Notes: generated from the letters alone by a model not told the origin. A stretch of DNA of 61,213 bases, filler included, from Porpidia crustulata (GCA_964255105.1; 6 parts of 6 records of this genome joined end to end with filler, not necessarily neighbours in it); one strand, 5' to 3'. Shown: positions 246 to 4,176, numbered from the whole stretch's first letter. Made by a program: numbers and translations.

Positions 246-1033
246 ATGGCAAACCTCCAGCGCGGCGTCATTTCTTTGCTACTCATCCTGACTGCCGCCT
301 TCCTGTTCCTTGCCCAGACGTCTCAAGCCGCCAAGGGGCCCAAGATCACCCACAAGGTACGATCCCCTCATGACCCTGAATCTTTACATCGCTGATGCAG
401 GTTTTGTTAGGTTTATTTTGATATTACGCATGGCGATGAGCCGCTTGGAAGGATCGTCATGGGCCTGTATGGAAAGACCGTGCCCAAGACGGCTGAGAAC
501 TTCCGGGCTCTTGCTACTGGCGAGAAGGGCTTTGGATACGAGGGCTCGGCTTTCCATAGAGTCATCAAAGGGTTCATGATTCAGGGTGGTGACTTCACCA
601 ATGGTGATGGTGAGATATGATGTTTTGTACGTGGAAGCTTTGGAGCATGCTAACGATGGAGTAGGCACTGGTGGAAAGTCCATCTATGGGGCTAAATTCC
701 CGGATGAGAACTTCAAGTTGAAGCATACCAAGAATGGAATGTTGAGTATGGCAAACTCTGGGAAGGACACCAATGGATCCCAGTTCTTCATTACTACTGC
801 TATTACCGGGTTAGTTTATATTGCCCACAAAATTTTCGGAAGTCCTGACAAGTGAATACAGATGGTTAGATGGCAAACACGTCGTATTCGGAGAGGTCTT
901 GGAGGGCTACGACATCGTCGAGCAGATCGAGAACGTGGCCAAAGGGGCAGGAGACAAGCCCTCGAAGCCTGTCAAGGTTGCAAAGAGTGGAGAGTTGGAA
1001 GTACCAGAAGAAGGTACCCACGCGGAACTCTAG
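246..1033 (+). CDS. cypB: ER cyclophilin B (peptidyl-prolyl cis-trans isomerase), soluble HAEL-terminated isoform
   Basis: Signal peptide [28 protein letters not shown]. Spliced exons give [97 protein letters not shown] introns at about 357-410, 610-664 and 810-861. Ends HAEL*. Confidence 0.97.
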
Positions 1034-1106
1034 ATCAGCTTTCTCTACCTCTTGCATATCCGTCATGATGCTCTGGAATTGCTGATGATTCGGTCCATTT
1101 ACAAAG

Positions 1107-1333
1107 AAATCATCGGGTCGGCGCTCCCAGCAATCGACGGCGACGAGTTGGACGTAACATTGCCTCAGGCTCTCAAGCAGCCAGAACACGCGGAGGCTGA
1201 GATGACTCCATCGACCGAAAATCATGGGTTTAGCTTGATGCAAAAGTTGATCTTTTTTGGTGTTATTGGTGGAGCTGTTGCGTTCTTCATCAGGACTCGG
1301 AAAAACAGCGTGACGGAGAAGAGTTTGGCTTGA
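1107..1333 (+). CDS. Putative alternative terminal exon of cyclophilin B encoding an acidic linker, a transmembrane helix and a basic tail
   Basis: Donor GTACCC at 1014, branch-like GCTGAT at 1081-1086, acceptor AAG ending at 1106 (or CAG ending at 1130). Both joins are in frame with ...LIFFGVIGGAVAFFI-RTRKNSVTEKSLA*. Confidence 0.7.
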
Positions 1334-2002
1334 GAGCATGTATCATTTCTGATTCTTTCTCATGTCTACTCTTATCCTTCGTGCTGGCACGTCTTCTAGC
1401 TAAATCTATAAATTTGGAGATATCTGGAAACTTTGCCAGGGCTGAAGCAATTAACTCAGTTCAAATCTTCCGAGTGAAGTAATTCACCTCCGTAAATGCC
1501 ACCTGCTTAACCCGGAGAAATCTTGATAAGGCTGAGGCTTAGCGCGGCTTCGCTTGCTAAGCGTAGAATTCTCGTGATAATAATTTTGCCTCACGGAAAA
1601 CTTCTTAAACCATCATCACCTCACTGCCTCATCCTACCCTTGTCATATCTCCACACGCCCGGTCCTCTGATCTGTCTTCATAGAGTTCGACACGAATTTG
1701 ACGTTCCTTTTCTTTCTTTGCTTTATGAAAGCGAGATAGATCTGTTAGATCAACTTCTCCCAGTCCTATATCTTCCGTCGTCACTACAAGGTTCTGTCGT
1801 TCAATTAGATTCCTGCCAAAGCTCCCCAAATCCTCCAAGGTCTTATTAGGCGTCTTCAAGATAATGTAAGCGGTCACTTCCAGGCCTCTAGTCCTACAGC
1901 AGCATAAAAACAGCCTTATCAGTCGGGGCTAATTGATTTAATACATCCAGATCATCATACGCAAAATTTCCGACCATCTACACAGCCGACTCATATATCA
2001 AC

Positions 2003-4176
<2,174 letters not shown>

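What the first reader, a model, noticed from the sequence alone, without database searches (positions are those of the whole stretch)
1007..1333. Cyclophilin B: ER-retention signal and stop codon lie inside a retainable intron, a possible soluble versus membrane-anchored switch
Seen: unspliced, the gene ends ...EE-GTHAEL*. The codon GGT at 1013-1015 contains a donor (G|GTACCC), followed by a branch-like GCTGAT (1081-1086) and acceptors ending at 1106 (AAG) and 1130 (CAG). Both acceptors join in frame to an exon encoding an acidic linker, a hydrophobic segment (LIFFGVIGGAVAFFI) and a basic tail (RTRKNSVTEKSLA*). Established: HDEL-like tetrapeptides retrieve lumenal ER proteins, and a signal peptide plus C-terminal TM plus basic tail gives type I membrane topology. 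Inference: one splice decision converts a lumenal foldase into a membrane-tethered one with no canonical KKxx signal, which could leave the ER. Whether this has been described in other fungi needs a literature check.
Basis: partly seen in the sequence, partly recalled or inferred. Interest (0 to 1): 0.72.

Follow-up and report, generated by a model that had tools for sequence, protein, structure and literature searches.

The report
Two-ended fungal cyclophilin B gene
This fungal gene for an ER protein-folding enzyme can probably end in two ways, as a soluble ER-resident form or as a membrane-anchored form, depending on whether its last intron is removed, and the arrangement is old and conserved in filamentous ascomycetes but hardly studied.

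Summary
Window 246-1033 (+) is a cyclophilin B gene: signal peptide, PF00160 domain, three short introns, ending ...[12 protein letters not shown]. The G of the Gly codon at 1013 is followed by GTACCC. A branch-like GCTGAT (1081-1086) and the first AG after it (1105-1106) define a 93-nt intron. That intron joins in frame to an exon (1107-1333) encoding an acidic linker, a 15-residue hydrophobic core and a basic tail ending EKSLA.

Comparative evidence shows this is not chance:
- The tail exon lies downstream of cypB in 18 of 23 loci examined.
- Its frame relative to the stop varies 6/6/6, so splicing, not readthrough, is what is conserved.
- The donor Gly codon is GGT in 23 of 23, against 21% for other Gly codons.
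- dN/dS of the TM and tail is 0.04 in the only unsaturated pair.
- The HxEL-stop inside the intron is also conserved, so both products appear to be selected.

Long forms are annotated in five other fungal genomes. One, Phialophora macrospora, carries long and short variants of the same gene. No RNA data exist for this organism. I found no paper describing the switch. Where the membrane form resides is unknown. It is a new member of an annotated but unstudied kind, of moderate interest.

The parts
246..356 (+). Exon 1: ATG at 246, hydrophobic N-terminal signal sequence ([28 protein letters not shown]) and start of the mature protein
   Evidence: Colinear with the 208-aa cyclophilin B proteins.
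357..410 (+). Constitutive intron 1 (GTACGA ... GCTGAT ... TAG), 54 nt
   Evidence: with protein colinearity to P0003/P0005.
411..609 (+). Exon 2, cyclophilin domain part 1
   Evidence: Pfam PF00160, E 1e-17.
610..664 (+). Constitutive intron 2 (GTGAGA ... GCTAAC ... TAG), phase 1 in a Gly codon
665..809 (+). Exon 3, cyclophilin domain part 2
   Evidence: Pfam PF00160, E 1.6e-11.
810..861 (+). Constitutive intron 3 (GTTAGT ... CTGAC ... CAG), 52 nt
862..1013 (+). Exon 4, common part: end of the cyclophilin domain up to ...GELEVPEE plus the first base of the Gly codon
   Evidence: Pfam PF00160, E 2e-10. 1372 relatives found.
1014..1033 (+). Start of the retainable intron. When retained it completes Gly, encodes THAEL (an HDEL-type ER retrieval tetrapeptide, HAEL) and supplies the TAG stop at 1031-1033. 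This is the short, 208-aa isoform end.
   Evidence: An HxEL/RxEL + stop is conserved at this place in 23 of 23 loci.
1014..1106 (+). Alternative (retainable) intron, 93 nt. It has a weak donor G|GTACCC, a branch-like GCTGAT at 1081-1086 and the acceptor AAG at 1104-1106, which is the first AG after the branch.
   Evidence: L014 has the same 93-nt length and AAG acceptor. Donor GGT in 23 of 23.
1128..1130 (+). Not supported by conservation.
   Evidence: Using it would remove the conserved IIGSALPA exon start.
1107..1246 (+). Exon 5, lumenal linker: conserved start (E)IIGSALPA, acidic GDELDVT, a variable stretch, and the juxtamembrane GFSLMQK
1247..1291 (+). Exon 5, hydrophobic core LIFFGVIGGAVAFFI: 15 uncharged residues between Lys and Arg
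   Evidence: A core of exactly 15 residues in 59 of 65 tails.
1292..1333 (+). Exon 5, basic cytosolic tail RTRKNSVTEKSLA and the TGA stop at 1331-1333. This is the long, 277-aa isoform end.
   Evidence: The C-terminus is EKSLA in 21 of 65 tails, and 49 of 65 fit the wider pattern (see the full report).

Best explanation
Window 246-1333 (+) is one cyclophilin B (ER peptidyl-prolyl isomerase) gene with two alternative 3' ends, chosen by whether the last intron (1014-1106) is spliced.

If the intron is retained, translation runs into it, adds G-THAEL and stops at TAG 1031. This gives a 208-aa soluble lumenal enzyme. I infer that the HDEL receptor retrieves it to the ER.

If the intron is removed, the HAEL signal and the stop go with it. 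Exon 5 (1107-1333) is then joined in frame. This gives a 277-aa protein with signal peptide, lumenal cyclophilin domain, acidic flexible linker, one membrane-spanning segment and a short basic cytosolic tail ending EKSLA (type I topology).

The donor (no G at +5) and the acceptor (AAG) are weak, and they are conserved as weak. That fits partial splicing, so that both products are made.

Shown here: the sequence features, their conservation across filamentous ascomycetes, purifying selection on the tail, and conservation of the in-intron HxEL-stop.

Inferred: that both mRNAs are made in this organism, that the retained form is the major one, the type I topology, and that the membrane form stays in the early secretory pathway.
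For: - Gene identity. The three exon translations hit PF00160, and the closest proteins are 208-212-aa cyclophilin B of Lecanoromycetes.
- Tail exon homology. There are 49 hits at E<=1e-3 in 1.84e9 representatives. tblastn places the tail just downstream of the cypB stop in metagenome loci.
- Tally over the window plus 22 loci with an HxEL-type end. TM tail present in 18. One is cut in the linker (L021). Two have too little downstream DNA (L009, L016). Two lack it (L018, L024).
- Tail frame relative to the stop is 0/+1/+2 in 6/6/6 loci, so only splicing can join it generally.
- Donor Gly codon is GGT in 23 of 23, against 27 of 126 other Gly codons in the same exon. Fisher p = 1.7e-13, not corrected for relatedness.
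- A CTGAT/CTGAC/CTAAC branch motif, followed by an acceptor directly before the conserved exon start, is seen by eye in 18 of 19 loci that carry a tail or tail start. The exception is L011.
- dN/dS for L012 versus L013 is 0.04 for TM + tail, 0.35 for the linker and 0.18 overall. It is 0.26-0.27 in the four other pairs where dS could be computed.
- Fused gene models with the same junction (PEE|D/E-LIGSALPA...) are annotated in Loxospora, Pycnora, Psora, Cryoendolithus and Phialophora macrospora.
The black-yeast genome paper, which I take to cover this annotation, says alternative transcripts were predicted from RNA-seq with PASA (PMC5358931, passages read).
- Short-form mRNA is seen. 37 of the 120 listed hits are 200-227-aa uninterrupted ORFs on contigs of at most 1261 nt from JGI or Logan, which I read as cDNA-like.
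- L011 is an intron-free cyclophilin ORF followed by the retained intron and the whole tail ORF. The retained-intron transcript therefore runs through the tail exon.
Against: - There is no RNA evidence for this organism.
- Among Pezizomycotina-like hits, no cDNA-derived ORF joining the cyclophilin domain to the tail was seen. The fused forms are 2 of the 120 listed and 2 of the 49, and all four are NCBI gene models. Most come from MAG or draft annotations that may be ab initio. The spliced form may therefore be rare, condition-specific or, in some species, unused.
- L018 has the donor, branch and acceptor, but only a 22-aa frame without a TM after it.
- Synonymous sites are saturated in 7 of the 12 pairs for the TM + tail block. 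Only one pair gives a clean dN/dS, and the codon alignments were guided by the protein alignment.
- I did not check whether P. macrospora was one of the seven species with RNA-seq.
Confidence: 0.85

Rival explanations
1. Programmed readthrough of the TAG at 1031, not splicing, makes the extended protein. In the window the tail is in the same frame as the stop.
For: Frame 1034..1333 is in frame with TAG 1031, with no further stop. Fungi do use readthrough to add C-terminal targeting signals (PMC4207609, search listing and abstract only).
Against: The tail is in frame with the stop in only 6 of 18 loci, the share chance gives. Annotated long forms lack the HxEL and the intron-coded residues. A readthrough product would carry about 25 unconserved intron-coded residues. 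The conserved GGT donor, branch and acceptor are unexplained by readthrough.
Confidence: 0.03
2. The intron is always removed. The only real product is the membrane-anchored form, and HAEL-TAG is fortuitous intron sequence.
For: Some annotations give only the long form (Loxospora, Cryoendolithus, Pycnora).
Against: HxEL/RxEL + stop is conserved at the protein level inside the intron in 23 of 23 loci across distant classes. 37 of 120 listed relatives are cDNA-like uninterrupted short-form ORFs. L011 is a transcript-like contig with the other introns gone and this one retained. The donor lacks G at +5 in 23 of 23.
Confidence: 0.04
3. The intron is never removed. The tail frame is a separate small membrane-protein gene or a decaying relic in the 3' UTR.
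For: Gene callers on metagenome contigs list the tail as stand-alone ORFs of 58-142 aa. No spliced cDNA was found among Pezizomycotina-like hits.
Against: Those ORFs start at unconserved Met codons inside the intron. The conserved part begins exactly at a splice acceptor. There is purifying selection on the TM and tail and the GGT donor is fixed. The tail always lies 50-400 nt behind cypB on the same strand. A stand-alone tail would have no signal sequence. Long and short variants of one gene are annotated in P. macrospora.
Confidence: 0.06

Closest known systems
Annotated long and short cyclophilin B products of other Pezizomycotina. NCBI: Phialophora macrospora KIW72655 (291 aa) with variants KIW72656/7 (212 aa); Loxospora ochrophaea MCJ1376875 (295 aa); Pycnora praestabilis KAI9818098; Psora testacea KAL9127336; Cryoendolithus antarcticus OQO07496.
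   Same: The junction is the same, after the first base of the Gly codon that precedes [TI][HR]xEL. The exon start (D/E-LIGSALPA..GDELDVT in Lecanoromycetes) and the K-15-K/R hydrophobic core are the same. The basic tail ends EKS[LM]A in Loxospora, Psora and Phialophora macrospora, but Pycnora ends GKSDV and Cryoendolithus ends KVGGV.
   Different: The linker is highly variable in length and sequence, with 40-60% identity overall in the tail. For the window's organism no annotation or RNA was available. From memory only, unverified here: Swiss-Prot lists 'Long' and 'Short' splice isoforms for some fungal PPIB entries.
C. elegans CRLD-1 (CRELD). Alternative last exons give CRLD-1A, which is transmembrane, or CRLD-1B, which ends in KDEL (PMC6245729, passages read).
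   Same: One gene for an ER folding factor. The lumenal catalytic part is shared. The splice choice at the 3' end decides between membrane anchoring and a KDEL-type soluble form. There, both forms were ER-resident and not redundant.
   Different: The protein family is unrelated (a PDI-like EGF protein). It uses mutually exclusive last exons rather than a retained intron that carries the signal and the stop. It has two TM segments.
Drosophila NinaA, an integral-membrane cyclophilin of the secretory pathway that chaperones rhodopsin. Only titles in the reference list of PMC4006722 were seen; the architecture is recalled.
   Same: Signal sequence + lumenal cyclophilin domain + C-terminal membrane anchor, the architecture predicted for the long isoform.
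   Different: NinaA is a dedicated gene, not an isoform, and is tissue-specific with a known client. Orthology of the tails was not tested, and no client is known for the fungal form.
Cryptic peroxisomal targeting by alternative splicing or stop-codon readthrough in fungi (PMC4207609 and PMC3798809, search listing and abstracts only).
   Same: In fungi, a C-terminal sorting signal is included or excluded by a choice at the 3' end of the message, giving dual localisation from one gene.
   Different: There the signal (PTS1) is added by the rarer event. Here the default retained form carries the signal and splicing removes it and adds a membrane anchor. The organelle is different.

Membership tests
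Cyclophilin-type peptidyl-prolyl isomerase (Pfam PF00160) | Match to the Pro_isomerase profile above the gathering score | tested here: met
   Exon translations 411-608, 667-807 and 863-1030 score 65.3, 45.1 and 41.6 bits against a cut-off of 21.7, covering profile positions 1-157 of 159.
ER-lumenal cyclophilin B (short isoform) | N-terminal cleavable signal sequence | tested here: inconclusive
   A hydrophobic N-terminus, [28 protein letters not shown], is seen and conserved in relatives. No signal-peptide predictor was available.
ER-lumenal cyclophilin B (short isoform) | C-terminal H/KDEL-type tetrapeptide directly before the stop | tested here: met
   HAEL-TAG at 1019-1033. [HRQK]x[ED]L + stop in 23 of 23 loci. 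Actual retrieval by the receptor is not testable here.
Alternatively spliced soluble/membrane isoform pair (as annotated for P. macrospora cypB; mechanistically like CRLD-1) | Canonical intron signals (GT donor, branch, AG acceptor) joining the two frames | tested here: met
   G|GTACCC at 1013/1014, GCTGAT at 1081-1086, AAG at 1104-1106. The same layout appears in 18 of 19 loci with a tail.
Alternatively spliced soluble/membrane isoform pair | Both mRNA forms observed in the organism | not testable with these tools
   No RNA run is listed for this DNA. The one holder is a DNA-like contig without joints. No genome is held.
Alternatively spliced soluble/membrane isoform pair | Alternative exon under purifying selection and conserved in orthologous loci | tested here: met
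   Tail present in 18 of 23 loci. dN/dS is 0.04 for TM + tail and 0.18 for the whole tail in L012/L013. 49 library hits.
Type I membrane protein with a NinaA-like membrane-anchored cyclophilin architecture (long isoform) | Single C-terminal hydrophobic segment followed by a net-positive tail | tested here: met
   LIFFGVIGGAVAFFI (Kyte-Doolittle mean 1.98 over 19 residues), then RTRKNSVTEKSLA. The K-15-K/R pattern is seen in 59 of 65 tails. Membrane insertion and topology are inferred, not shown.
Dilysine (KKxx / KxKxx) ER membrane proteins | Lys at -3 together with Lys at -4 or -5 from the C-terminus | tested here: not met
   The window ends E-K-S-L-A, with Lys at -4 only. 0 of 65 tails have the motif.
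Programmed stop-codon readthrough extension | Extension conserved in frame with the leaky stop | tested here: not met
   In frame in the window but in only 6 of 18 loci.

The most novel reading that the evidence does not exclude
The spliced product may be a dedicated, NinaA-like membrane-tethered escort foldase. On this reading, it lacks both HDEL and KKxx and cycles beyond the ER with membrane or cell-wall clients. Its invariant features would form a previously unrecognised sorting or partner-binding module of filamentous fungi. Those features are a Lys-flanked 15-residue core preceded by QK and the near-universal C-terminal -E-K-S-hydrophobic-Ala. The deliberately weak, conserved splice sites would make the soluble/anchored ratio a regulated variable, for example under secretion stress.
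Probability: 0.2. Interest if true: 0.7.

Novelty: new member of a known kind. Interest (0 to 1): 0.5.

Why it matters
Cyclophilin B is a standard component of the fungal secretory folding machinery and a target in strain engineering for protein production. If every filamentous ascomycete makes a second, membrane-anchored version from the same gene, then knock-outs, over-expression constructs built from the short cDNA and localisation studies have been looking at only half of the gene's output.

The locus is also a compact example of dual coding. The first 20 bases of an intron carry a sorting signal and a stop, which are conserved at the protein level. Both splice sites are held weak over hundreds of millions of years.

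The conserved C-terminal EKS(L/M)A and the fixed-length, Lys-flanked hydrophobic core are ready-made handles for asking how the anchored form is sorted.

Tried and rejected
- RNA evidence. The look-up of sequencing runs listed no RNA holder. The single holder X1, laid, is one near-identical contig without joints and is probably the DNA's own source. It says nothing about expression.
- Own genome: not held.
- Word-indexed protein searches with the tail alone found nothing beyond the query. These were 66-aa tail, longer proteins, E<=0.01; Loxospora tail region, E<=10. The tail is too short and too variable for that index at a 5.8-billion-sequence E-value. The exhaustive phmmer search then found 49.
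- Literature. Nine searches were run, of which seven were aimed at the switch and two were for NinaA and the black-yeast annotation. I also did term look-ups in PMC1618848 (main text and 8 supplements), PMC8192932, PMC13162259 and PMC9801653. None describes a fungal cyclophilin B splice switch. Subscription papers on Aspergillus cypB, which I recall, are not in the library.
- Earlier notes of this scan: nothing.
- Rejected readings: stop-codon readthrough, a stand-alone small gene, and constitutive splicing or retention (see the rivals).
- Second acceptor at 1130: rejected as the main site.
- Internal DEL in GDELDVT. I considered that it might become a retrieval signal after cleavage. It is not conserved outside the Lecanoromycete/Eurotiomycete-like sequences, so I treat it as an acidic patch.
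- The hydropathy threshold missed the Gly-rich tail of L002. It was recovered by eye.

Full report
WHAT IS THERE

Window 246-1033 (+) is a cyclophilin B gene.
- Exon 1 (246-356) starts with a hydrophobic signal-like N-terminus.
- Exons 2-4 (411-609, 665-809, 862-...) encode a cyclophilin domain. Their translations hit Pfam PF00160 at 65, 45 and 42 bits and cover profile positions 1-157 of 159.
- The three constitutive introns are 52-55 nt. Their donors are GTACGA, GTGAGA and GTTAGT, all with G at +5.
- Read without further splicing, the gene ends ...[17 protein letters not shown] (1031-1033). This gives 208 aa, the length of most relatives.
- The closest proteins are from lichen-forming Lecanoromycetes: Protoblastenia, Lepraria and Villophora, at 88-89% over the last exon.

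THE OBSERVATION

- The Gly codon GGT is at 1013-1015, and G|GTACCC is a phase-1 donor.
- GCTGAT lies at 1081-1086. AAG ends at 1106 and CAG ends at 1130.
- The downstream frame reads (E)IIGSALPAIDGDELDVTLPQALKQPEHAEAEMTPSTENHGFSLMQK / LIFFGVIGGAVAFFI / RTRKNSVTEKSLA-TGA (1331-1333).
- The 1106 acceptor gives a 93-nt intron and a 277-aa product. The 1130 acceptor gives a 117-nt intron and a 269-aa product.
- Because 93 is a multiple of three, the tail is also in frame with the TAG.

IS IT MORE THAN CHANCE?

Yes, on several independent lines.

An exhaustive phmmer search with the 74-aa tail against 1.84 billion representatives gave 49 proteins at E<=1e-3, four of them at E<=1e-10.
- Most are 58-142-aa stand-alone ORFs that gene callers placed on metagenome or Logan contigs. 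They begin at unconserved Met codons in what is the intron here.
- Some are fused to a cyclophilin domain exactly as predicted. These are Pycnora praestabilis (236 aa) and Psora testacea (142 aa, partial), and Loxospora ochrophaea (295 aa) and Cryoendolithus antarcticus (297 aa).
- In the three Lecanoromycete models the junction reads PEE|DLIGSALPA... or PDE|DVWGFAEP..., matching the window's PEE|E-IIGSALPA via the 1106 acceptor. The P. macrospora junction (PPE|E-SPIY...) lies at the same position and phase.

ORTHOLOGOUS DNA

A scan of metagenome contigs with the last cyclophilin exon returned 80 loci. Of these, 22 keep an HxEL-type end. I did not analyse the tails of the other 58, which are more distant cyclophilins matched only up to about residue 45-52.

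Tally over the window plus those 22 loci:
- 18 have the TM tail downstream on the same strand. L002 is included; my hydropathy threshold missed it and I found it by eye.
- L021 breaks off within the linker.
- L009 and L016 have only 51 and 155 nt after the stop.
- L018 and L024 lack a TM tail. L018 is a cDNA-like contig with donor, branch and acceptor but only a 22-aa frame behind them. L024 is AT-rich, ends in KDEL and looks yeast-like.

The frame of the tail relative to the stop is 0, +1 and +2 in 6, 6 and 6 loci. Readthrough therefore cannot be the conserved route, and a phase-1 splice fits all of them.

In 18 of the 19 loci with a tail or tail start, a CTGAT/CTGAC/CTAAC motif is followed by an acceptor directly in front of the conserved exon start [DEVG]-x-[YIEQ]-G-[ST]-A (judged by eye). 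The exception is L011. L014 has the same 93-nt intron and AAG acceptor as the window.

SPLICE-SITE CONSERVATION

The Gly codon that holds the donor is GGT in 23 of 23. Other Gly codons of the same exon are GGT in 27 of 126 (21%). Fisher p = 1.7e-13, not corrected for shared ancestry.

Position +5 of this donor is never G (C 10, T 8, A 5). The window's three constitutive donors all have G there. Four acceptors, including the window's, are AAG.

So the sites are conserved and conserved as weak. That is what one expects if both outcomes are needed.

SELECTION

In the only pair whose synonymous sites are not saturated (L012/L013), dN/dS is 0.04 for the TM + cytosolic tail, 0.35 for the linker and 0.18 overall. 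In the four other pairs where dS could be computed for the TM block, it is 0.26-0.27. In the remaining seven pairs dS was saturated. The codon alignment followed a protein alignment, which can flatter dN.

Inside the intron, the short isoform's [TI]-[HR]-x-[ED]-L + stop is also kept in all 23. This argues that the retained form is translated and selected.

TRANSCRIPT-LEVEL HINTS FROM OTHER ORGANISMS

- 37 of the 120 listed relatives are uninterrupted 200-227-aa short-form ORFs on JGI or Logan contigs of at most 1261 nt. The gene has introns in the window and in genomic loci. I therefore read these as cDNA assemblies of the retained-intron message.
- L011 (1040 nt) has an intron-free 208-codon cyclophilin ORF, then the stop, then the whole tail ORF. 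That transcript therefore runs through exon 5 with only this intron retained.
- Conversely, no cDNA-like contig of a Pezizomycotina-type gene showed the spliced junction. The long forms I have are NCBI gene models.
- For P. macrospora, the black-yeast genome paper, which I take to cover this annotation, states that alternatively spliced transcripts were predicted from Trinity/PASA RNA-seq assemblies for seven species (PMC5358931, passages read). I did not establish that this species was among the seven.
- Two cDNA-like contigs of a more distant fungal lineage (L023, L025) encode signal peptide + cyclophilin + Ser/Thr-rich linker + TM + basic tail in one ORF.
- For the window's own organism, no RNA run is listed. 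The one holder is a DNA-like contig without joints.

ANATOMY OF THE TAIL

Across 65 tails, made up of 49 library proteins and 16 loci including the window:
- The hydrophobic core is exactly 15 uncharged residues between a Lys (usually QK) and a Lys or Arg in 59. My regular expression picked a 13-residue stretch in four. Two have no such core: P0169 looks frameshifted and L001 ends the core differently.
- None has a dilysine signal.
- 49 end in x-[KR]-[SNHTG]-hydrophobic-[AV], and EKSLA occurs 21 times.
- The linker varies from about 20 to 70 residues and is acidic near its start.
- The tail matches no Pfam family.

MECHANISM

The retained intron gives a soluble lumenal isomerase ending HAEL. 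The spliced message gives a type I membrane-anchored isomerase without HAEL.

The positive-inside rule and the upstream signal peptide put the enzyme domain in the lumen. This is an inference from established topology rules. I rate the two-isoform reading at 0.85 and use of the 1106 acceptor at about 0.8.

Where the anchored form lives is open.
- It has neither HDEL nor KKxx.
- Its very short, length-invariant core fits the early secretory pathway rather than the plasma membrane. This rests on the TMD-length rule for fungal organelles, which I recall and did not check.
- The conserved C-terminal pentapeptide is unexplained.

COMPARISON WITH WHAT IS KNOWN

- The same gene structure is already present in public annotation of at least five ascomycetes, once with both variants.
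- From memory only, Swiss-Prot lists Long/Short isoforms for some fungal PPIB entries.
- Mechanistically, the nearest described case I read is C. elegans CRLD-1. There, alternative last exons give a transmembrane or a KDEL-ending ER folding factor with non-redundant roles (PMC6245729, passages).
- Architecturally, the long form resembles Drosophila NinaA, an integral-membrane cyclophilin of the secretory pathway. I saw only titles in a reference list.
- Fungal use of 3'-end choices for C-terminal sorting signals is known for peroxisomal PTS1 (listing and abstracts).
- Nine literature searches and four term look-ups in papers found no description of the cyclophilin B switch. Older subscription papers on Aspergillus cypB are outside the library.

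VERDICT

- The conserved acceptor is 1106.
- The 1130 site is unsupported.
- Exit from the ER is untested.

For this genome, it is a new member of a kind that exists in annotation but has not, as far as I could find, been studied. Interest 0.5.

Noticed in passing
window 1247-1330, and 65 aligned tails: The hydrophobic core is exactly 15 uncharged residues flanked by Lys and Lys/Arg in 59 of 65 tails. 49 of 65 end in x-[KR]-[SNHTG]-hydrophobic-[AV], with EKSLA 21 times. This looks like a conserved but unexplained sorting or partner motif. None has KKxx.
   Followed up: partly
L023:1-975 and L025:20-1000: Two cDNA-like metagenome contigs of a more distant fungal lineage encode signal peptide + cyclophilin + Ser/Thr-rich linker + TM + basic tail as one uninterrupted ORF of 325 and 327 codons. 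A membrane-anchored cyclophilin B therefore also exists outside the group that shares the EKSLA tail.
   Followed up: no
L018:609-1110: This is a cDNA-like contig with the EGTRDDL-stop end and the GGT donor, a TTGCTGAT branch and an AAG acceptor. Only a 22-residue frame without a TM follows the acceptor. It may be a lineage where the tail has decayed or where splicing gives a secreted form without a retrieval signal.
   Followed up: no
window 1140-1160 (GDELDVT): The acidic start of the tail contains an internal DEL, conserved as GDELDVT in Lecanoromycete/Eurotiomycete-like sequences but not in other classes. It is probably just an acidic patch. A cleavage-exposed retrieval signal was considered and not pursued.
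   Followed up: partly
P0105: A 227-aa cDNA-like cyclophilin B carries a 20-residue Pro/Glu/Thr-rich insert between ...PEEGIQ and a final HEEL. This is a third way of ending the protein.
   Followed up: no
window 2003-4050 (+): The next gene downstream is a DEAD-box RNA helicase of the Ded1/DDX3 type. It has a Gly-rich C-terminus and an intron near 2207-2275. It starts about 670 nt after the cyclophilin tail stop, so the tail exon is not part of it.
   Followed up: no
window 866-1342 (-): A 158-codon open frame lies antisense to the end of the cyclophilin gene and the tail exon. It has no known relatives checked and is probably a by-product of the codon composition of the sense strand.
   Followed up: no
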